This document shows positions 2,631 to 23,503 of a stretch of DNA of 64,000 bases, one piece after another. Every line of letters starts with the position of its first letter. The stretch's first letter is position 1. The translations under genes were made by a program, and so were the position numbers. Origin of the DNA: Cenococcum geophilum (Eukaryota); the NCBI GenBank assembly GCA_050273025.1, contig CP158635.1:16802001-16866000 (forward strand). The letters run 5' to 3'. The notes beneath the pieces were generated by a model that saw nothing but the letters and a program-made list of their open reading frames with translations, did not search any database and had not been told where the DNA came from.

Positions 2631-2956
2631 GAAAATCCTAATTAATTAGTAGAAGTTAGGGTTAGTAGAATATAACGGAATTTAGCAAGTAGCACGCCCT
2701 AGGAAACTATGTTGTTAAAATAAAGTTATAGAGCTAGTAGAGCGTAACTAGATACGGCTAGCTTAAGCAAATAGGAACGACAGTTAACCAATAGGGATAC
2801 TCTTAAATTGCCTTTATTATCGCATCTACCGGGTTATCTTAGCTACTAATCTATTAAATTCTAAAGAGTTCTTAATACTTACAGGATTATTAAAGTGCCA
2901 TAATATTAATTATAAGGCGCTTCTCCTTTACGGTACTTCTGCTGATTATTTCAAAA

Positions 2957-3160
2957 CGAACCTCTATAAGGACCTCCGCGAGAACCTCTACAAGGACCTC
3001 CATGAGGACCTCTACGAGAACCTCCGCGAGGACCTCTATAAGGATCTTCACGAGAACCTCCACGAGGACCTCCGCGAGGACCTCCACAAGGACCTCCACA
3101 AGGACCTCCGCGAGGGCCTCCACGACAACCTCCACGACGACCTCCACGAAGACCTCTACG
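2957..3160 (-). repeat. 17 x 12-bp tandem repeat, reading RGGP-like units in the Copia gag frame
   Basis: The unit is aggacctcc(a/g)cg, whose reverse complement is CGT GGA GGT CCT. The frame is fixed by alignment to the gag at ~32340-32440. Confidence 0.85.
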
Positions 3161-4972
3161 ATTGCTTTATAGTTGACATTGATCGTACTCTCTACCGTAT
3201 TCCAATTCCCCGCTAAACTTCTTTTCCTGGTCTAAATAGAGCCTTGTAAGCTCTATAAGTAACTTTAGGATGCCTCCGAGTAGCGCTTGCATTATAGGCT
3301 GCGGTAGGGATATAGAGCTTAATAGAACAGGGCGTGGTACCTAATCTTGCTATAGTAGAGTTCGAAGGTTATTAAATCGCGAAGTAGGGGGATCTTGCGC
3401 TTAAGGAGCAGTAGTCGAAGTTGTGGGTTAAATTAGTAGATACTAGGGAACTAAAGACGGAGGTAAAGGTAATAGATACTAAGGAACTAAAAATAGAGGT
3501 AGAAGCGATGGATGCGGAACTAAAGACGGAGGTAAAAGCGATAGATATAGAACGGAAGAACTTGTACCTAAAGTAATGGAATTAGGACACGTCTCTAGTA
3601 GTATATTACTTAAATTCCATTATAAGCTAAGCTTCTTTTAGTGCTTAATCTCTTATAAAGTCCATTTGTGCTCCTCCCTTATGTTAATAACATGCTCCTA
3701 AATATTATCTCTAATAATGCCCCCATCTATAGGGATAAATACTCTATTTTCCCAAAGGAAGTTACGGAAGTTTTATACAATAACCTTCTTCATAAGAGCC
3801 TATATTTCCTTTATCCATCTAATAAAGTCCTCCTTTATACAATACTATAGCATAGTATCCTCGTATTCGCTGTCTTTATAATATACTATACGGTATAATA
3901 GGAATCCATTTAGGTCCTATTGCTTAGCAATTATAGGGTTAATATCTCTGTTTTATATCTCTGGGTTAATATTATTCTCGTACTTCTTTGGGTAGGTTAA
4001 CACTATAGTAGGTATAGAATTAACGAGGTGTCGTACGTTAAAGGTAGGTAGGATTTTCGGTTTTATAGGATTTCGTAGGTTTACTGTTAAGAGGTAGGCA
4101 ATTTAAGATATTGTTTAACGCGTTTTAGACGTCGTTTAACGCGTTTTAGACGTTAACTTAAGACCCTAGGTTTAGTAACACTTCTAACCTAAAGTATAAC
4201 TAAATCTTTATAAACGCGATTGTTCTGTATAATAGACGCAACTTAGTATCTCCTAGTACTTAGTAACACTTCTATTACTAGTTTTCCGTAAGTTTAAGGT
4301 AGCATAATATCGCCGGAATCCATTCCATATAAGCGCATATAGCACCCCTATATAAGACTATCTCTTTTATTCAAAAACCTAGCTGCTCTATAGTTAACTG
4401 TATATTTAACCACTAATTAGTATTAGTTATATAGGGTAACTTATAACGGAACCTTGTAGCAAGTACTATAATAGGCTTGTTAATAGGCTAGGTATATAAG
4501 TAATGTAAATTAAAGTTAATAATGTAATAATAACTGGTAGAGTGGTTGCCTAATAGATTAACTCTAATTGTATTCTAAGAATTACTATAAGGAAGGAACT
4601 ATCTAGGTAGGGACTAAGGGTCCTTAAATACACAACCGTACTCCTATAAAATCCTCCTTATATATAATATACGTATTATACGTATTATACGTACGTTTCC
4701 TTTATATACTGCGTATATTATATATAATATTATATAACCTTAGCTACTATTCCTTATTATATAGTTTTATTAGCTCTATCCTAGACTATACCTAAATTAA
4801 CTAACTAGCTTTCTCTAACTCTTCTTTAAGTAGTTATAATATTATACTTAAAGCGTCCGTAACACTATCTCCCTCCTTTTTATCTTTATCCTTAAAGATT
4901 CTAAATATCTCTAAGTTATTTACTAGAGGTATAATATCCGTCTAATTAATTTAGTTAATATTGTTATTTATT

Positions 4973-13174: not shown

Positions 13175-14910
13175 TATATAACCTTAGCTACTATTCCTTA
13201 TTATATAGTTCTATTAGCTCTATCCTAGACTATACCTAAATTAACTAACTAGCTTCCTCTAACTCTTCTTTAAGTGGTTATAATATTGTACTTAAAGCGT
13301 CCGTAATATAACTTACTAATAACGACTACTCGAGTAGGTTATAGTGATATTAGTTAATAAAGCTTATTAATTGGAATGAGGAAGGGTAAGGAGCCTAAGA
13401 CTCCTTACTACGCTAGTGCCGCGGCGTTACGTAACGACCGCTTGCCTTATTCCCGTTAGTAAACTTTATAATTTTAGTATTAACTATTTAACTCTAAGGC
13501 TAAATACTTTATTTACCTATTATAGAACTCTTTTCCTTTATTACGGAAGTTTTATCTTTTTAATTTTCTACTTTAATCTATCCTCGTAGATAACTAGCTT
13601 ATACTCTTATCTTTTTTTTTAGAATCTTAAGCCTTTAGCTTTTTGCCTTTATTAAGTGCTAAAGTAGTTTACTATTTTACTTCTCTTATATCTTATAAAG
13701 TAATAAATATTATGTCTAATAGAGTCTTAATCCCTATTATTAATCTATCCTTTATAGTAGATTTAACTTCTACCTCTATTATAATATCTCTAAGGTTTAT
13801 ATACTTCTAGTAAGCTGCCTTTATTACCTTATTATTACTAAATATTTTACCTATATTAAATTTATCGTCCTTAATATTCGATCTATAAGATAGTTCGTTA
13901 GTTCTTCTAAACTTTATTAATTTTGGCTCCTATAGCTAATAGCTTATACTATACTTAACGTCTTTTAAATTTAGTATATGTTATATAATAAAACGCAAAA
14001 CTTCTAATTAGACACTCTTTGGTTCCTTATAGTATACTATCGTCCCTCTATATATATGTGTTGTTTACTAGCCTAATTCCCTTAACCATATAGTTACTCT
14101 AACTATCTTTATAGTCTCTAGTAAAATAACCTTATTTTCTACAATTTATATAAGCTTCTTCTTTAAACTATTTTTCTTGCTATTAAGTCCGCCTAAATAT
14201 CTTCTGCTATTAAGATCCCTAGTTTAGCCTCTACTTTTTAAACCTTTAATTACTTAAACCTTATCCTCTAAGTTTCTATAGTTGTTTTATTTATCTCTTA
14301 TAGGCTTTTCTAGTACTATTTAGGTCTATTAGCTTCACGCTATACTATAGTTTCTAATTTTAACTTTATTAATACGTACTTTGCGCCTTGTATAACCATA
14401 GAACTCTATTTTAACCCTTCTTAGTCTATTCCCTTTAGTAGATTCTATTATTAATCTTAATCGCTTAATTAATTAGTTCCCTTCGGGTTTCCATATCTTT
14501 TATTAGGATAATTATATTCTAAACTTTTACTTTAAGTCCCTGTTTATACTATGCTATAAGTACCTTATTATTCTATTTAACTTATATTACTAATATTTAA
14601 AACTATATTATATACTTAATTAATAAAATCCTTTATACTAGGTCTCTAAATATTTGCGTTAGGCGTTTTACGAACCTATTCTAACTAGTAAACATATACC
14701 GTACCTCCTAATTAGTAGTTGCTATACCGTTTTCCTATACCTCCGTTAGATAAGGCTTAAACTACTTAAGTCCCTTTTCCGTTAGAAATAATCCTATATA
14801 GGCGACTTAGTCTATAGACGTTACTAACTTCACTCCTTTTTACGTAACCTTAAAGTGTATTTACGTAAGAAATCCCTTAAGTTTTAACTTCTCCCCTAAG
14901 AATCGCTTAA

Positions 14911-15125
14911 TATAAGGGGATCTTATAGACAGGGCTATAAGGACACGATTGTGGAATAGGATAGATTGGTAAGAGAGACAAATCCTTAAGGGGGTAAGGC
15001 CTCTGGGATTGTGAAGACTATATACTACGGGCACGTGCCTCTGGTACGTGACCGGTAACTATTTAAGGGGCGTCTAAGGGTTATCCTAAGGGCAACCCGA
15101 GGTGTCCGCAATAATATCCCTTACA
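14911..15125. mobile_element. Solo LTR (215 bp)
   Basis: Termini tataaggg...cccttaca (RIP-altered TGTAAGGG...CCCTTACA) with TSD CTTAA on both sides. A homologue lies at 23577-23791. Confidence 0.88.
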
Positions 15126-15861
15126 CTTAATAGATAATAGCTTAATCTTAGCCACTCTAATCCTATTAATCTTTCCCTTAAGCAACCTATTATTATCTAT
15201 TATTTAATTAACTATTTCCTATAGCTGTCTAACTGTAACTAGCTAAGAGTTAGTATCTACTATACTGGTATCGTTACCTAATCTTAATATAGTTACTGCC
15301 GTTAACGCCGTTATAACTACTACTTTTAGTAGCATATTATTTAACTTTATTAATACTATAACTAGGTAGTAAATGTATAATAAAGCCTTATAGGAAATAC
15401 TACGGTAGACTTATTAATGGGCTAGGTATATAGGTAAATAAGAAGTTAATAATATAATAATAACTAGTAGAGTAGTTGCCTAATAATTAACTCTAATTAT
15501 TTTCTAAGATTTACTATAAAGAAGAGAACTATCTAGGTAGGGACTGTAGTCCTTTAAATATATAATACTGCGCCTAAGAAATATACTAAGTATATTAGTA
15601 CGTTAGTATATCGGTATATTCTATATTCCCACGTTCCTATATTCCTACATTCCTATATTCCCACATTCCTATATTCCCACGTTCCAAACTTATAACGTAA
15701 CTAGTTACGTAACTTAGCTACCCCTTATCCTATTGCTCGATTGATTCTAGCTTCTTTTATACTATCTTAACCAACCTATTTATATCTCTTCTTAGTAGTC
15801 GTACTACTGCCGATATAAGGTCTGTAATAGCGTTTATATATAATACTTCGTCATCGTAACA

Positions 15862-16207
15862 TTTACAAAAGGTTTAATATTCTTTAACTACTATATAATA
15901 AATCCCCTATAGTAGTTATAAACCCTTAAAAATAATCTTAACTGCGTAACGTTCTCTAGTTCTTATTAACTTACTATAGCTTTAATCTTCTTTAAGTCTA
16001 TACTAATATAACCTAGTTTAATAATAAATTTAATAAATTTGGTCTCTTTTATAAAGAACTTGCATTTTTTAATTACTACTAGCATCTATTCCTCTTATAG
16101 TCTCTTTAAGACCTATTTAACGTATTCTTCGTATTCTTCCTTACTTATTAAGTAGATAGTAGTGTTATTAAGGTATAATATAATTAATTTATTAAGGTGT
16201 TCTCCTA
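15862..16207 (-). pseudogene. Gypsy reverse transcriptase fragment
   Basis: Colinear with ~7575-7915 (RT YxDD region). It is preceded by a 32-bp stub ending gtaaca (15830-15861), possibly another LTR end. Confidence 0.8.
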
Positions 16208-17065
16208 TCTATATAGACTATAATTTAGGACCGTATTAAACATTAATCAAGAACAATATATATATTGTGTTTAATATATAAATAAGCTTATTAATTTTTT
16301 TCAAGTTATGGATAAAGTTTTAATTTTATAATTTATTCCTATAACATGTTTTACTATAGCTAAAAATAGTAATTAAGATTATGATATAGTCTATTTGTAT
16401 ATTTAATCTAATATTTTTTTTATATTTTCACTATATATAAAAGGGTAGTTTTTTAGTTTATACTATAATATTTTTATATTAATAGCTATTATCGATATTT
16501 ATTTATAAGTATATTTTAATACTATCCACAAGCTAATTACGTATATAAGTTAGCTAAGTCTTTTATTCTTCTTATTATTTAATTATAGTCTTTGTATTCG
16601 ATAAGCCGTATTTAAATTTCTATAAATTTCTATTACAAGGTTGTTAAGTTATTGGTAGTGTAGGAAGCTGTATTTGGATATTTAAATAAGGAAAAGCGAG
16701 CACGAGCCAGTCGGGTGCACGAGCCGATCAAAACTTCCAATGGATTCTACTACTTCATAACTAAAGTGCGGTCTTGGAATTTCAAAGGCCTTCTTTGCGA
16801 GGGCACGAACTCGATAGAAAGGATAAAAAGGATAGTTATCGGTGGATGTAATGGAGGTAACGTTGAGGATTAGCAAGTGAATTGGTTGCATACTTTAGGG
16901 CGTGATGCATTTGGTTTATTTCGTGCTGTGGTTGTTTTCTTTAGCAGAGCGCAGCGCCGTTGTGAACTTTGGTAGAGGGGTATGACTCCTCCTAAGCAAC
17001 AGCTAATTAGAGCCACGGGTGAGCCTGCAAATTTTTTTATCGCGCTAGCTATAGAGATGGATGCC

Positions 17066-17147
17066 TTAACATTAAGTCATAGCGCGTTAACATTGAGTCA
17101 GAGCGTGTTGACATTGAGTCAGAGCGTGTTAACATTGAGTTAAGTCA
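17066..17147 (+). promoter_or_regulatory. ~3.5 x 21-bp tandem repeat carrying TGAGTCA (Gcn4/CpcA/AP-1-type) sites
   Basis: The unit is ttaacattgagtcagagcgtg. Exact TGAGTCA occurs at 17094-17100 and 17115-17121, with TAAGTCA variants flanking, ~90-170 bp upstream of the ATG at 17234. Confidence 0.55.
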
Positions 17148-17233
17148 GTGGGACTGCAACTGTTAAATATCCTTCCCCAAGAGCTCGTTCCTAGTACATT
17201 CGTAACTCACTCACCGCCACAGGTTTTACAGCA

Positions 17234-18453
17234 ATGACGAACCAGACCACAATGCCGTACTATCCAACGAGAAGCCCGGAGGAATATCGGGGCAAATATC
17301 CCAATGCTGGCGTAACACTTGAGCTAAAACAGAAACATCTTCACCTCCTCCCCGCTAGCAAATGGGGAAAAGAGCATCTCATCGCTTGTCGTCTCATCCA
17401 GAACACCGGTGGCAAAATTCTTCCCGTCTTAAAAGAGTTCGCTCCGGAGCCAAACGATCTCGAAGAGCACAAAGAATGGGATAACATCAAACGTCTCGTC
17501 GACGGGCCCCAGAAGCAAGATTTGATGTATAAATCCAGCTTGGAACTGGATCAGGAGAACGGTAACTTGGGATTACTCTGGTCTATGCTGGCGGAATGTA
17601 TGGCCCTGCGCCAACCGTCTCAAAAGTCCTACCTAGCTAGCTCTTCCAATGGCGAAGGAGTCTACAATGGCGAGCACACAGACAGGACCGAGCCCGACGT
17701 CCTAACAGCCAAACTTGCCGGGGCCTTTATTCGATATGTACTGAATTTCTGTGCGGGACAGGAACCGAGAAATGAAGCTATGCTGGAATTCCGAGAGGAT
17801 CCAGAACGAGTGCGCCATGATCTGCCTTTGCTAAGGCTCGACGCTACGGACGATGGCGGCATCTGGACAGTGGAGACGAGGGAGTGGAATAAATATCCAT
17901 GGATGTTTGTAAGGCGACTGGCATTGCTAGATGCTAAGAAGGCATTTCAATGCATTGATGACGACAATCAGCCAGTGGTTTCCGACGCCCATTTGTCGCA
18001 GTATACCTGCGAGGCGCTGACGGCGTGTCTGAATTATCCATATGAAGATGAGTAAATCTACCCTTCTCTCCCCATCTAATCTTAACTGCTAACGTTTGTG
18101 CCAGGGTGTTTGTTGTAGCTATAACCCATACGTTTATGCGCTTCTTGCATTTTCACCGGACCAAAGATTATATGGAGTACCTTTACTGCACCGATGCAGA
18201 GCAGCAGAGAGCATCAAACGCCTACCTACATATGACAGAGACCGAGTTCTTCGCGCTCGACAGTGAAGTTGGTCGGAGACACGCTGTGTGCAATCTTCTA
18301 GGGTTGGTGAAGTTCTGGGAGAAGCAGCAGGAGCGGCAAGTCCAAGACTGGGAGGAGGCAGAGGGTAGCGAAGAGGATGTGGAGGGCGAATATGCTGTCG
18401 GCGAGGCTGTTAGCGGGGAAAACGACGACAATATCAATGGCGATGATCTGTGA
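17234..18453 (+). CDS. Intact two-exon hypothetical protein, 388 aa (exons 17234-18051, 18105-18453); probable PD-(D/E)xK nuclease-like fold with acidic tail
   Basis: A 53-nt intron GTAAAT...GCTAAC...CCAG (18052-18104) joins the 273-aa and 115-aa ORFs in frame (GA|G = Glu). Base composition is balanced with no RIP signature. Motif pattern: DDGG...LLDAKK...LSQYTCEAL. The gene structure is firm and the fold is inferred. Confidence 0.85.
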
Positions 18454-18676
18454 GGAACGAAGGAGACTCCGAGATAAATGCTGACTACCGTAACAATGAG
18501 GATAATAGTGAGGAAGAGACGTTCTTCTTAGAGTCTATCCTCTACCCCCCACCTACACTCGAAATAGAAAAGGCATTTGGGCGTAATTCCGGAATTATGA
18601 GGGGAAGACTAGATAGAGTAGAGTTCCTTAAATTAACGGAGTCTCCGGGCACAATTATCCCATACAATCGTAATTA

Positions 18677-18995
18677 AACCTTTACCGCACATGTAACCTT
18701 ACCAAAAGGTGGCGCCGTACTCCAAACTTACGCATACTCATCTTTCTATCAAAAAACATTGTTCTTCTAGCTCCTAAGACCCAATTCCGCCTACTTAGCA
18801 AGCTAGAGGTAGACTTATTCTGCTAATTACCCCCTTTCTCTATAGTAGGGGGCTTAGTAAAAAGGGGCCCTAGCTTATAAGCGGGGTAGAGGTAGGAATA
18901 CTAAAACTACAAAATATAGACTTTTCCTAGGGTTTTCTTCTATAGAAAGTAAAAGTCTAATAAAATAGGAGGTATAGGTATTTTTCTATATCTCC
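18677..18995 (+). mobile_element. Fragment of a LINE-like 5' UTR
   Basis: Aligns with ~58749-59118 (aaac.tttacc.cacatg.aaccttac...tttctatatctc). Confidence 0.65.
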
Positions 18996-19040
18996 TTTAA
19001 ACCCGGGCCCTTAGAACTCGGCGACCCCCTAAACTGGACG

Positions 19041-19700
19041 ACTTAACTAACCGAGCCCCACCACTTTTAAAGCCATCTATAACCAATCAAATTAATTTAA
19101 TCATCTACCCTTACGCGCTATTTAGTATATCGGCCCTGTTTCTACCTAGCGCCTATTAAGGCTTTTATTTTAGCTCCTTTCCCCCTTTTTTAGCTTTTAT
19201 CTCCTCTAACTTCTCTATAGCTTACTTAATCGAATCTATATTTATAAATTTTATATTTAGATCTATAGCTATATATTTAAGCGTCTTTATATATAGCCTC
19301 TATAGTAAGTCGCTTAAGTTATTGACCTACTTTTTATAGATGTAATTAAGCCTTTTAATTAAGTATATGCTCGTTATAAAGGCCTTAAACTATTTAATAT
19401 ATATTATAAGGCTTCTTTAGAGTAGTCATAATACTAAACTAATCACTGTTAGTTTATTTAAAGCTTAAAGTTTCTATTAAAGATTTATTTTTAGCCTATA
19501 AAGTTTTAAGGCCCTTATACGGATTCTATAGATAAATACTAAAGATATATTACCTAAATATGGTTATTTTTACTGTAAGGCCTTCCTTTTAGGCCTTATA
19601 GTAACACTTAATAAAACGGTACTTCTTAATTAAAGCTATATTATTAAGAAATATAAGCTTTATAATTTAGTCCTAATACTTTAATTTAATAAAGGAGAAG
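19041..19700 (-). pseudogene. Heavily RIPed, internally deleted pogo/Fot1-like transposase 3' remnant
   Basis: The minus strand gives ALIKKYRFIKCYYKA*KEGLT and TTLKKP..., resembling the post-DDE region of Fot1-type transposases. Boundaries are approximate. Confidence 0.45.
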
Positions 19701-21045
19701 TATAATAGATTTAGGGATTACTATATTAAATACGGTAGTAGAAGAACAAGCTATATATTATTCTATTTATATTTTAATAAAAACTTAACTATATAGTGGC
19801 TTATATAGCTATTAAAAAAATAGTTAAGTTTTATTACTAAATAATTTGGTTTTTAATAAGAAAAGACTAATAAATTACTTATGTATATATTTTCTTTTAA
19901 AAAGCCGCTACAGTAGTAGAACACGCCTACTACTTACCTAATAAAGAAACTACTACTCCTAATTAAATCTATAGCATAATATGCCCTAGGACTAATATAT
20001 ATGGTATAGTTAGAAAGCCTACGCGATATAGGAGGATTATAGTAGACTTAAAGGTGGGCCAATATATAGAAAAACGCGACACTACAATAAACCCAATAGG
20101 GGGCGATCTAACTATAATAACTAAAGGACAATAACTAGAAATAGCAGAAACTTATAAATATCCTAAAAAAACATTAAGGAAAATCTAGGGAAGGGAGAGG
20201 ATAAACACCTACACGTAGGGGTGGCGTGTATAGCCTAATAGGCAGAATAAATTACTTAGGAACTCTAGGTATAAGGTAACCCCCAAAAAGGCCTTGGTCT
20301 TAGCCTAGTTATAAAAGATTTTATTTAGCCTAGATTAAGCTCTATTGGACCTAAATCTACCCCTAGAGGTTTTTAATATATTTATTAGTAGTTTTCTCCC
20401 GTATAGCTTCCCAATATCCTCTTTAAAGAAGATTAGTTTAGGGCTCCTAACTTCTTAGGCTTAGGCTTAGGGGAACTCCAACTATAGGGGTTATATTAGC
20501 GCCAGTAGTTAGTATAAGTTACCCTATACAGCTTAAGTATTAAGTTAGTATTTAGGTTAGATTACCTAAAGGGGTATCCGCTTAGCTTATAAGCGGTCTA
20601 TATATTGCTACTATGCTAATTACAAGCTAATAGTCTTTCAGAAGGGTTTTGGTTAAATCCCTAATTAAATATATTAGTATATTCCTTTAGCATTTCCAGC
20701 TTAGGGGAAAATCTTAGAATTACCTCTAGCGCTTAATCTTTTAATTAGCTTAAGTAGGGCTAAAGGAGTTCTAGCTGCTTTTTAGTAGCGTTATAGCCGT
20801 TATAAAGGGCATTTATATTTTCTTTAGCGTTGCTAGTAATCGTAAGTATATAAAAGTCTTTAAGCTTTTAGCGTATCTAGGTATTAGGGCTTATTTAGCT
20901 ATCTTACCTAGAGGTTTATATTATTGCAATCTCTTGCTATTAGAGGGACCTTTCTACCTTAAAGTAACGGCTATCTATAGAGTATCTATAGGGTTTTCAT
21001 TTAGGTTATTACGAGATTTTTTTTTTAAAAAAAATAGTAGGTGTA

Positions 21046-23503
21046 ACGTAGGTAATGGGGTTTTGACTACACCCTAGGTTATAACCGTCTAAATATTAAA
21101 ATTCGCCAAAATGCCAATGTAGTAGTAAATAACTAGTAAAAGCCATTATAAGTTATCGCATTATTAGTAAGAAGTATAAAAGCTATAAGTATATATAATA
21201 CAGTCTATATAAAGTCGATTTTTAGTATTTTATAGTTTAAATAGCCACTAAGTTAACCCCTAAATGTCCTTATCCAAAGACTCTTTATCGCTTAAATTAC
21301 TTATATTATCGTCCTCCTACCCTTTTTATAGGCCCTCTAGTAGATCAGCTTCTTCTACTACCTTCTTAGCGGTCTCATAAAGCTACTTAATAAGAGTAAT
21401 AGCTATAAGAGCGGCATTAGAGGAGTCTTCTACCCGCTTCTTAAGCTTATCCACAGTTAACTATTTTAATATTGCATAATTAGCTGCTATATTAGCCACT
21501 AATTAAGCCTCTTTAGTGTGCTTTCTATAACCTATATTAGCGGCAGTAAGGGAGTCTTTCTGCGCCTTTTTAGCTACCTTTCCTGCCTCCCTTACCTCCC
21601 TATAGTAAACCTTGGCTAGCTTCTTATATTAGTAATCCTTTTTTAGGCTGCCTTTCTGGCTTAGGCTTACTCCTTAGTAAGCGCTACTACCACCTAACAA
21701 TCCTCCTTAAGCTGTTTCCTAGTAAGCTTACTCTTTAGCCTTCTAAGCGGCCTCTTTAGCAGTAGTAAGCTCCTTTATTACTTCTAAAATAAGAACTAAT
21801 TTGGTAGAGAGTATATTCTATTTACGCTTCTTCTTAGCCTTCCTCTCCTTAGTATATTGCTAAAGATTATTATTTTTAACTTATATAAGCTTAAGGCCTT
21901 CCTCTAAAGACTATAGGTATTATATTAACTTTAAGACAACTGCCTCCATTACCTACGGCATAGTTTCCGGATAAAGAATTATATACGTGTACTAAGCTTA
22001 AGCATACTTGTTACCTAGTAGGGGAGAACATATAGGGGAGGATAGGATCGTCGCCTCTATATAAGGTAGAGGTGTAAATAGCTTAATAAATATAGGCTGT
22101 TTAGAGCAGCGCATAAGGGCTTAATTTAGGTTAAAGGGAAGAGGCTTATAGCCTTAAAGGCGCTCTTAATTAACTCCGAAGTATATACTTATAGCTAAAT
22201 CTTACTAAGTATACGTAGAAAGTAGTCTCTATTAATACCAGTAATACTATAAGCCGTAAATTTATTAACTTTAGAAAAATATAAGCGCTTAAAAACTAAA
22301 AATATAACTAAATCTAGTGGCTATAGGAGGTGGGTAAAATATAGGGGGAGGTAGATTAGTATAATCTTCTTTAACTAGCAGAACTTAACAAACTTAATAT
22401 TAATATGGCTACTATAGCCATCCATAATTAGGAGTTAATAGCCGTTATATTTACCATTGGTTTTATCTTTAGTTGCCTTCTATACCTTAGTTTATTAGGT
22501 ATAGCGCTTAAAGTACTCTAGCTATCGTACTCCAAGTTCTGAATTTAACTATCTATTTTTGCTTATTACAATTATACACTCGCCTATAGCCTTCTCTACT
22601 TCCTGTCATAGCGATTCTATATATTAGCATCCTTTAAAAATAATAAACGGTGGAATCGTTTGCCTATATATACTAATTAAATCAATCTACAAAACCCACT
22701 CCCTTAAGCCGTTAATTGTCTTAAAATTAATAATATTACCTCTTAATATAACTACTTTGGCGCTATAAGCGGAGCCTATAGTATAGCTAGTCTTATCCAT
22801 ATTCTATACGTCTGCGTTATTAATATTATACTAAGTCTTAGCCCTAGAGTTTTTAGAAAAGAACCTTATAATTAGAGTAGGATTATTACTAGCAATAGCG
22901 CGTTCTAAGCTAATTAATTATATATAGTAAGTCCGAAGCTCTTCCTGGCGTTTAAAAAAAGATTATATCCAATTTTTACCTAGTAGGGCGACTTTGTAAT
23001 AGTAAGGAAGGTTAGAGTTTTCCCGCCAAAGAATAAGGGAGGCAATTGTCCAAATTATATAAAATCGATATGGAAACCTAGCTTTAGTAAGATATATATA
23101 GTGTTAAACAATCGCCGCCTCCCTGGTCAGAGTTATACGATATTAGTTTATATAGGCGACTTAGTAAGATTAGTGTTTACTATAAAGTCGTTTTTAAAAA
23201 GTAGTAGGAGGAACTCTATGGCATTCGCGTAAGCTTAGGGGTGGCAATATAAGCCGCTTACTTGCTAGGCAGTAAGAGCAGCTTATATACAATCTTCTAT
23301 ATCTAGTGCTTAGGGCTAGCAAGGCATAGACGTAGATTAGCGGTATATTTGTAGAGTTAAGGTATAGAAAAGTAGCTAAGAAAGTTAGCTATTTATTTAT
23401 AAAGCAGTAGTATACTTCTTTAGGCAATAAGCTAGCTATAAAAGGAAAGCGGTCTGCTAGCGCAGTTATAACTAGGGTGTAGTCAAAACCCCATTACCTA
23501 TGT
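21046..23503 (-). mobile_element. Fot1/Pot2-like (pogo) DNA transposon, full length, RIP-inactivated
   Basis: TIRs of at least 32 bp (acgtaggtaatggggttttgactacaccctag) with TA on both sides. The transposase starts at ATG 23327 and carries NMD(E)T (~22795), LLIMDG(H)SSH (~22420) and HLL(Q)PLD (~22325). Confidence 0.92.

What the first reader, a model, noticed from the sequence alone, without database searches (positions are those of the whole stretch)
17234..18453. Lone intact, RIP-free gene with a PD-(D/E)xK-like motif inside dead transposons
Seen: this is the only intact gene in 64 kb, 388 aa with one canonical intron, normal CpA/TpG content and a D/E-rich C-terminus. The segment ATDDGGIW...LALLDAKK...LSQYTCEAL...VFVVAI has the D...(D/E)xK...Q pattern of restriction-endonuclease-fold proteins. 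Established: RIP spares single-copy DNA, and this fold occurs in selfish or toxic eukaryotic proteins (the Spok nuclease domain, Crinkler-associated REases). Inference: it is a candidate selfish gene, toxin, drive component or mobile-element cargo. It is not recognisably Spok itself.
Basis: partly seen in the sequence, partly recalled or inferred. Interest (0 to 1): 0.7.

Follow-up and report, generated by a model that had tools for sequence, protein, structure and literature searches.

The report
Unnamed fast-evolving fungal restriction-like nuclease
This is a real, expressed fungal gene from an unnamed family of restriction-enzyme-like proteins that is patchily spread and fast-evolving, as selfish or cell-killing genes are, although this copy looks toned down and no killing has been shown.

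Summary
A RIP-free, spliced, transcribed 388-aa gene is the only intact gene found in the window. The fold call also holds: the AlphaFold model (pLDDT 89) has the restriction-endonuclease core, and the E..D..ExK..Q residues are 94-97% conserved across 181 aligned family sequences. No Pfam family matches. It is not Spok (no kinase) and not a Crinkler (no header).

It is not a core orthologue. The genome holds three more copies, all broken. The family tree contradicts fungal taxonomy. Close relatives also sit alone in RIP'd DNA. The recent clade keeps its reading frames while a quarter to a third of sites evolve at omega about 3.

New here: this copy is an outlier. It has D in place of E at two catalytic positions, and it has lost the basic linker and the C-terminal basic tail.

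Best reading: a stand-alone conflict nuclease family, with this allele probably attenuated. Toxicity, drive, an antidote and Starship carriage are not shown.

The parts
17234..18051 (+). Exon 1: N-terminal domain (aa 1-124), shortened linker, and nuclease core up to helix alpha2
18052..18104 (+). 53-nt GT..AG intron; same position in the six intact relatives and the C2 paralog aligned (53-61 nt)
   Evidence: (junction in an RNA contig)
18105..18453 (+). Exon 2: last strands and helices of the fold, acidic tail, stop codon
17354..17392 (+). Conserved N-terminal motif A-S-x-W-x-x-x-H-L-x-A-C-R (aa 41-53; S 93%, W 96%, L 94%, R 90%)
17696..17698 (+). Asp155 at the start of core helix alpha1; Glu in 139 of 144 family rows, Asp in 2 of 144
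17840..17866 (+). DATDDGGIW (aa 203-211): the 'PD' acidic motif; D206 94%, D207 96%; aa 204-211 invariant in the recent clade
17930..17938 (+). D233-A-K235, the (D/E)xK motif at the end of a core strand; Glu in 140 of 144 rows, Asp in 3 of 144; Lys in 141 of 144
17999..18013 (+). Q256-Y-T-C-E260 on core helix alpha2 (Q 142 of 144, E 129 of 144)
17606..17616 (+). Site of an in-frame loss of the basic, Ser-rich linker: W116 to residue 155 spans 39 aa here, median 83 in 131 rows; shared only with P0004
18449..18531 (+). A 1-nt gap ends the frame early; behind the stop lies the relic of the tail that ends in RKRKRR-type basic residues in the C2 paralog, L012, L016 and L017
17066..17140 (+). Three tandem 21-nt promoter repeats, two with TGAGTCA; the 20-nt pattern matches only here in the genome; related units in C2 (2-3) and L016 (4-5)
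16745..18636 (+). Extent of DNA shared with related loci (about 490 nt upstream to 185 nt downstream of the gene); no terminal inverted repeat shared between copies

Best explanation
The gene belongs to an unnamed, accessory family of stand-alone PD-(D/E)xK nucleases of filamentous ascomycetes. Shown by prediction and conservation: a metal-binding site built from helix-1 E/D155, D206/D207, (E/D)233-x-K235 and Q256/E260. Inferred: the family acts inside the cell as a nucleic-acid-cutting toxin in genetic conflict (killing nuclei, spores or fused non-self cells that lack control of it), like the Spok killing domain but without a kinase antidote. Control would come from the conserved N-terminal domain and linker, from localisation, or from expression. 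Copies arise by occasional ectopic duplication and lateral movement, survive where linked selection is weak, and die by RIP or point mutation. The window's copy is most likely an attenuated allele (two E-to-D changes at catalytic positions, both basic patches lost) that is still kept open and expressed.
For: Fold: pLDDT 89.3, pTM 0.87, alpha-beta-beta-beta-alpha-beta core with the conserved residues on the expected elements; best VIA matches mL65 Z 11.7 (rmsd 5.0, 219 aligned), mL37 Z 11.4 (4.8, 211), DrdV 7.0 (3.7, 134), BpuSI 6.9 (3.1, 136), then DinG-nuclease, Cas4, AdnA, RecB at Z 5.4-6.2; the 12 top rows are all of this fold. 116 of 144 complete rows keep all seven site residues. Birth and death: four loci in the genome, three broken. 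Incongruence: AU tests reject monophyly of 5 Eurotiomycete rows (p 2.8e-38) and 14 Hypocreales rows (p 1e-23) among 24. 25 of 30 clusters looked up are singletons at 90% identity. Selection: recent clade omega 0.90 against 0.30 elsewhere (p 5e-11); M2a over M1a in the folded domains p 0.003 (4 taxa) and 0.0009 (3 taxa without the pseudogene), M8 over M8a p 0.0007; 1 stop observed against 14.6 expected under neutrality, 0 of 3000 simulations with 1 or fewer. Context: window, C2, L014/L015 and L016 are each a lone RIP-free island. Precedent: the Spok PD-(D/E)xK lysine is needed for killing (PMC6660238, passages) and Spok1 damages DNA (PMC9972908, passages).
Against: No experiment shows nuclease activity, toxicity or drive. 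No antidote domain or partner gene was found within 124 kb, yet the gene is transcribed in several samples. The closest solved structures are repurposed, ribosomal proteins (PMC8998825, passages). The site test is not significant with all 7 sequences (p 0.15), rests on 3-4 sequences and my own code, and could be inflated by recombination. Omega on the window's branch is 1.0, and a neutral branch of that length keeps its frame open 5% of the time, so recent decay of this copy is not excluded. Lone genes in RIP'd DNA are not rare in this species (20.57% of genes in or next to RIP regions; PMC12910237, passages). Incongruence can come from old paralogy and loss as well as from transfer.
Confidence: 0.5

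Rival explanations
1. Host defence or allorecognition effector: the nuclease serves the fungus by cutting invading DNA/RNA (viruses, linear plasmids, transposons) or by executing cell death on non-self fusion, rather than serving itself.
For: The same signatures (patchy presence, positive selection, birth and death) fit defence genes. It is transcribed in non-sexual samples. The review of CR proteins proposes that such REase domains arose against invasive DNA (PMC5289972, passages).
Against: No sensor, NLR or HET partner lies near any copy examined; no PADLOC or NCBIfam match for 6 of 6 proteins.
Confidence: 0.18
2. A decaying accessory gene: the family may once have been active, but this copy is drifting towards pseudogene status and has no current role.
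For: Window branch omega 1.0; only row of 144 with Asp at both 155 and 233; shortest linker; tail lost by a frameshift; the other three copies in the genome are broken.
Against: It is spliced and transcribed; identical in a second DNA sample over the pieces laid (X5); the linker loss and Asp233 are shared with P0004, which is 81% identical and open, so the short form is old; aa 204-211 are invariant; Asp is allowed at the (D/E)xK position (established knowledge).
Confidence: 0.14
3. A repurposed, non-cutting nucleic-acid-binding protein, as mL37 and mL65 are.
For: mL65 and mL37 are the best structural matches and span model residues 26-330.
Against: Site residues are 94-97% conserved in the family, which a dead enzyme would not need; identity to mL65/mL37 is 8-10%; patchy, fast-evolving distribution.
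Confidence: 0.1
4. A self-mobilising (homing-like or transposase-like) nuclease that cuts near its own promoter repeats and is copied into breaks.
For: Both dispersed fragments (C6 and the second C1 copy) begin inside the promoter repeat block, and the C6 fragment joins an open frame at a sequence matching the repeat unit. The L015 subfamily has its own unrelated tandem array before the start codon.
Against: Only four loci in 178 Mb; no shared terminal inverted repeats or target duplications seen; intron kept in all full copies; the uninterrupted form of the C6 site could not be found; n = 2.
Confidence: 0.06

Closest known systems
Spok1-4 and FuSpok toxin/antidote proteins (PMC6660238, PMC9972908, PMC12693581)
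   Same: Ascomycete PD-(D/E)xK domain with catalytic Lys and a conserved Gln on the following helix; an N-terminal domain and a disordered linker before it; patchy, dispersed, multi-copy in Fusarium
   Different: No kinase (resistance) domain, cysteine cluster or coiled coil; 388 aa against about 750; QxxxE instead of QxxxY; no drive shown
CR (Crinkler-RHS) REase toxin domains (Zhang et al. 2016, seen only through PMC5289972 and PMC12693581)
   Same: Eukaryotic restriction-endonuclease-fold domain with a conflict-type distribution; Atlas structural neighbours include a cluster with 17% Crinkler members (TM 0.49) and one with 94% Pkinase_fungal members (TM 0.50)
   Different: No ubiquitin-like header, NTPase or kinase; no signal-like N-terminus (1 of 120 rows); whether it equals one of that paper's numbered REase families could not be checked
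Fungal Pfam families DUF7924 (PF25545) and PDDEXK_12 (PF20516)
   Same: Fungal proteins of similar predicted fold (Atlas TM 0.48-0.52 to DUF7924 clusters; feature score 0.77 to a PDDEXK_12 cluster)
   Different: No HMM match for the protein or for 59 homologues; the Atlas scores are under its bar for naming a family
Mitoribosomal mL65 (MRPS30/PDCD9) and mL37
   Same: Best solved-structure matches, Z 11.7 and 11.4, covering N-terminal elements and core
   Different: Those are conserved, repurposed ribosomal proteins (PMC8998825); this family keeps the full site and is accessory; 8-10% identity, rmsd about 5 A
Type IIG/IIL restriction enzymes (BpuSI, DrdV), HsdR_N, and RecB/AdnA/Cas4 nucleases
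   Same: Shared nuclease core (Z 5.4-7.0); HSDR_N clusters are the nearest named ones in the Atlas
   Different: No methyltransferase, helicase or Fe-S module; eukaryotic, intron-bearing gene

Membership tests
PD-(D/E)xK (restriction endonuclease-like) superfamily | alpha-beta-beta-beta-alpha-beta core fold | tested here: met
   Model topology; the 12 top VIA rows, Z 5.2-11.7, are this fold. The model is a prediction and lacks residues 331-388.
PD-(D/E)xK (restriction endonuclease-like) superfamily | Conserved (E)..D..(D/E)xK site on helix 1, strand 2 and strand 3 | tested here: met
   placed on the secondary structure; side-chain geometry was not inspected
PD-(D/E)xK (restriction endonuclease-like) superfamily | Metal-dependent phosphodiester cleavage | not testable with these tools
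   Needs an assay
Spok | C-terminal kinase (resistance) domain in a protein of about 750 aa | tested here: not met
   388 aa; no kinase family in Pfam for it or 59 homologues; no 680-2000-aa relative among 3923 candidates (weak evidence)
Spok | PD-(D/E)xK killing domain with QxxxY | tested here: inconclusive
   Fold and Lys shared; the motif here is QxxxE; no Spok sequence was compared directly
Spok | Spore killing and self-resistance | not testable with these tools
   Needs crosses or heterologous expression
Crinkler / CR proteins | N-terminal header (ubiquitin-like LxLFLAK or helical) joined to a toxin domain | tested here: not met
   No Crinkler Pfam match; the N-terminal elements align as part of the nuclease fold
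Crinkler / CR proteins | Match to a numbered CR-REase profile of Zhang et al. 2016 | not testable with these tools
   Paper and its supplements not held
DUF7924 / PDDEXK_12 | Pfam HMM score above the gathering cut-off | tested here: not met
Starship cargo | DUF3435 captain gene at the element end, with cargo behind it | tested here: inconclusive
   Nearest listed DUF3435 hit is 167 kb away and points away; only 100 of 342 candidates scored. tblastn of two captain loci found none in 124 kb (C1), 70 kb (C2) or L014-L016, but the control hit was weak (E 5.5e-7)
DNA transposon | Terminal inverted repeats or target-site duplication shared by copies | tested here: not met
   the ends are eroded by later insertions, so old termini could be lost
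Single-copy syntenic core orthologue | One copy per genome, tree following taxonomy | tested here: not met
   Four loci; AU tests

The most novel reading that the evidence does not exclude
A previously undescribed class of single-gene fungal killer or addiction nuclease, spread across three ascomycete classes, that needs no kinase or partner antidote. Self-protection would lie in the N-terminal domain, in losing nuclear targeting, or in RNA from a broken paralog (the C2 copy is about 30 times deeper than the window gene and unspliced in one metatranscriptome). The window's copy would be a disarmed or resistance allele, and the family a living, active relative of the fold frozen into mitoribosomal mL37/mL65.
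Probability: 0.22. Interest if true: 0.82.

Novelty: new variant of a known kind. Interest (0 to 1): 0.52.

Why it matters
Few fungal killer and drive genes are known, and the nuclease-based ones have a fused kinase antidote. A kinase-free, unannotated family with an intact site, present from Penicillium and Fusarium to an ectomycorrhizal fungus, gives a short list of natural alleles that can be tested in yeast. It would show whether stand-alone REase-fold proteins are a general class of fungal conflict genes and how they avoid killing their carriers. The natural contrast between full-length alleles and this shortened allele makes the control mechanism directly testable. If they are inert, it is one more orphan family with an assigned fold.

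Tried and rejected
Sequence searches for a named family found nothing: Pfam (four sub-threshold chance hits among 59 homologues), NCBIfam and PADLOC, PDB by sequence and by profile (best E 0.004 on the low-complexity linker), Rfam in 14000-22000. No relative in viral contigs (57 pattern hits, none confirmed). The BFVD fold search had no hit at E 0.001 or better, though many top rows are PD-(D/E)xK nucleases. A first metagenome scan with the single protein found 45 pattern hits and no relative. Homodimer prediction gave no verdict: score 0.58, one control 0.51. Partner-gene idea: P0151 carries an extra N-terminal region that looked like an inactive paralog, but hhalign gave probability 0.25, within 20 shuffled controls; dropped. 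RIP as the cause of the high omega: only 4-10 of 49-67 private changes per lineage are in RIP context; rejected. Strain presence/absence: runs X21 and X23 show no window gene, but X23 barely shows the organism on this stretch and X21 is probably RNA, so this is no evidence of absence; three listed runs with share 0.00 are likewise not counted. L018/L019 are 34-aa matches in gene-rich DNA and were left out of all counts. Literature: searches (listings only) showed no paper on this family; subscription papers are not covered, and Zhang et al. 2016 and its supplements could not be read, so prior description as a CR-REase family is not excluded. Searches of earlier scan findings by sequence and by words were empty.

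Full report
Observation. The window is RIP-mutated repeat DNA: outside the island GC is 0.32, TpA/ApT 1.65 and (CpA+TpG)/(ApC+GpT) 0.43; in the gene they are 0.50, 0.69 and 1.31. Only 3 of 128 bins, 17001-18500, have a negative composite index, and the window is full of degenerate dispersed repeats. The gene is 17234-18051 plus 18105-18453 with a 53-nt GT..AG intron and encodes 388 aa. The product is identical to P0184, which NCBI annotates as a hypothetical protein of Cenococcum geophilum. A metatranscriptome contig (run X6) covers 16914-18312 with no differences and skips exactly this intron. 20 of 24 listed runs hold the stretch, 7 on record as RNA and 4 marked as a possible source. In 124 kb around the gene, the only other frame of 180 aa or more is a Tc1-like transposase about 67 kb downstream.

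Fold. Pfam has no family for either exon, the whole protein or 59 homologues. A search of cluster representatives found 167 relatives, 150 listed; another found 41 close ones among 901 candidates. In an alignment of 181 sequences the motif positions are nearly fixed: E155 96%, D206 94%, D207 96%, E233 96%, K235 97%, Q256 95%, E260 88%. 116 of the 144 rows that cover all seven positions keep all seven. AlphaFold2 on P0003 (residues 7-330 of the protein, 135-row alignment) gave pLDDT 89.3 and pTM 0.87, with these residues on helix 1, the strand-2 turn, strand 3 and helix 2. Among 48,161 solved chains, 12 reach Z 5 or more, and the top 12 rows are all of the restriction-endonuclease fold: mL65 (Z 11.7, rmsd 5.0, 219 aligned), mL37 (11.4, 4.8, 211), DrdV (7.0), BpuSI (6.9), a putative REase, a DinG nuclease, Cas4, AdnA, RecB and DUF820-type proteins. 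Foldseek agrees on mL65/mL37 (E 3.6e-5, TM about 0.35). A review calls these two 'repurposed endonucleases' (PMC8998825, passages). The alignments to RecB, AdnA, Cas4 and EXO5 start at model residues 26-30, so the conserved A-S-x-W motif may match the N-terminal S-x-S element of those enzymes; that motif is recalled and residue pairs were not visible. The fold assignment is about 90-95% likely; endonuclease against exonuclease, and DNA against RNA, remain open.

Copies in the genome. Searches found four loci (counts are lower bounds). The C2 paralog is 78-84% identical, full length, has a stop at codon 9, and is also a lone RIP-free island, about 20 kb from the next genes. The C6 copy is truncated, carries five TAG/TAA stops in its first part, and interrupts an open frame in gene-rich DNA. 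A second C1 copy is a 5' fragment with stops beside a LINE. So the gene is not single-copy; it probably escapes RIP because its paralogs are near or below the identity RIP needs (inference from established knowledge). In X6 the C2 paralog appears as an unspliced 475-nt contig at depth 291 against 10 for the window gene (strand unknown, one run, depth is a poor measure of expression).

Relatives. A metagenome scan gave 8 loci from 174 pattern hits; 6 are full relatives, and the five I aligned (L012-L016) have the same intron. The three with long flanks (L014 and L015, 92% alike and counted as one locus, and L016) are each a lone RIP-free island in RIP'd repeats shared with the window. Shared DNA runs about 490 nt upstream and 185 nt downstream, with no shared terminal repeats. 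All named homologues among 30 clusters looked up are filamentous ascomycetes; 25 of 30 clusters are singletons, and one Fusarium cluster has 20 members with several per genome. On 24 named rows (I left out three long-branch or unstable rows, near-copies and unnamed rows of the 44-row tree), AU tests reject one clade for 5 Eurotiomycete rows (p 2.8e-38), 14 Hypocreales rows (p 1e-23) and 3 Ophiocordycipitaceae rows (p 2.6e-32). Class and order labels are recalled, and the last two groups were named after I saw the first tree. Transfer and old paralogy with loss both fit; a core orthologue does not. As a brake on the 'lone gene' argument, 20.57% of genes in that species lie in or next to RIP regions (PMC12910237, passages).

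Selection. With my own codon models on seven sequences, the clade of window, C2, L012 and L016 has omega 0.90 against 0.30 elsewhere (p 5e-11). Within the folded domains, M2a beats M1a with 4 taxa (p 0.003; 0.013 with F1X4) and with 3 taxa without the pseudogene (p 0.0009; 0.004), with 24-37% of sites at omega 2.6-3.0; M8 beats M8a (p 0.0007); with all 7 taxa the test is not significant (p 0.15). Neutral simulation expects 14.6 stops in the clade, and 1 is seen. RIP-context changes are few. Variable sites cluster in the strands and loops beside the site (aa 176-203 and 212-227) while aa 204-211 are invariant. This is the pattern of a protein kept active while its surface changes. The sample is small and recombination was not screened.

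This copy. It is the only one of 144 rows with Asp at both 155 and 233. Its linker is 39 aa against a median of 83, and only P0004 shares that. A 1-nt gap ends the frame before the basic RKRKRR-type tail seen in C2, L012, L016 and L017; L014 and L015 also lack such a tail but keep the basic linker. No NLS-like pattern remains. Its branch has omega 1.0, and a neutral branch would stay open 5% of the time. It is therefore either an attenuated allele under selection or one that has started to decay; the open, 81%-identical P0004 with the same linker loss favours the first. Three 21-nt tandem repeats lie 100-170 nt before the start codon, match nowhere else in the genome, vary in number between copies, and contain the 5' ends of both dispersed fragments. 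Their role is unexplained.

Mechanism. Shown (computationally): fold, intact site in the family, accessory distribution, birth and death, expression. Inferred: metal-dependent cutting of nucleic acid, nuclear action of full-length alleles, and a role in conflict. The precedent is Spok, whose PD-(D/E)xK lysine is needed for killing and whose kinase gives resistance (PMC6660238, passages; PMC9972908, passages; PMC12693581, abstract and introduction). This family has no kinase and no linked partner, so how carriers survive is the open question. I put 0.5 on a selfish or killing role with this allele attenuated, 0.18 on host defence or allorecognition, 0.14 on decay, 0.10 on a non-cutting binder and 0.06 on self-mobility. 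Meiotic drive in particular is not supported by any direct evidence.

Known kinds and novelty. It works like the killing domain of Spok or a CR-REase but fails membership of Spok (no kinase) and Crinkler (no header), and it is below threshold for DUF7924 and PDDEXK_12. Starship carriage is inconclusive: earlier scan notes reported many dead Starships in this genome, but no captain was found near the window or C2 copies. Five literature searches (listings only) showed no description of the family, but Zhang et al. 2016 was seen only through a review (PMC5289972, passages), and its supplements may list it. Verdict: a new variant of a known kind, interest 0.52.

Noticed in passing
G000:C2:23506446-23507839 (L006:4446-5839, - strand): Paralog with a stop at codon 9 that a public gene model (P0015) bypasses with a different 5' structure; seen unspliced and about 30 times deeper than the window gene in one metatranscriptome.
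   Followed up: partly
L009:3817-4300 (G000:C6): An open frame (MPPPPPPRTT...) is cut off by the inserted gene fragment, with the junction at a sequence matching the promoter repeat unit; no second copy found in the genome.
   Followed up: partly
L030:5063-5171 (G000:C1 near 19648100): A 110-nt insertion with TGTTGA...TCAACA ends interrupts the fourth gene fragment; it looks like a solo LTR or small element.
   Followed up: no
L038:2-895 (G000:C1:16886002-16886895, - strand): A RIP-free Tc1/mariner-type transposase frame of 298 aa (PF01498) inside RIP'd DNA, about 67 kb downstream of the gene.
   Followed up: no
window 2922-3197; also L007:3047-3615, L008:4591-5231, L006:3546-3932: A 12-nt minisatellite, open in several frames, recurs in repeats of this genome.
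   Followed up: no
L015:3254-3357: A related subfamily has an unrelated 25-nt tandem array just before its start codon.
   Followed up: no
P0151 residues 1-270: A Fusarium record joins a family member to an upstream protein with a W..HL motif; no sequence-level homology found. Atlas rows 1-2 (534-aa unnamed ascomycete clusters, TM 0.61-0.64) are further unnamed structural neighbours.
   Followed up: partly
G000, whole genome: At least 165 DUF3435 matches, nearly all with stops; one locus at C3:7969165-7970527 has a single stop in the matched parts.
   Followed up: no
L042:5062-8630 (G000:C2): A NACHT-WD40 NLR-like gene lies about 30 kb from the C2 paralog (domain names read from the sequence, not scanned).
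   Followed up: no
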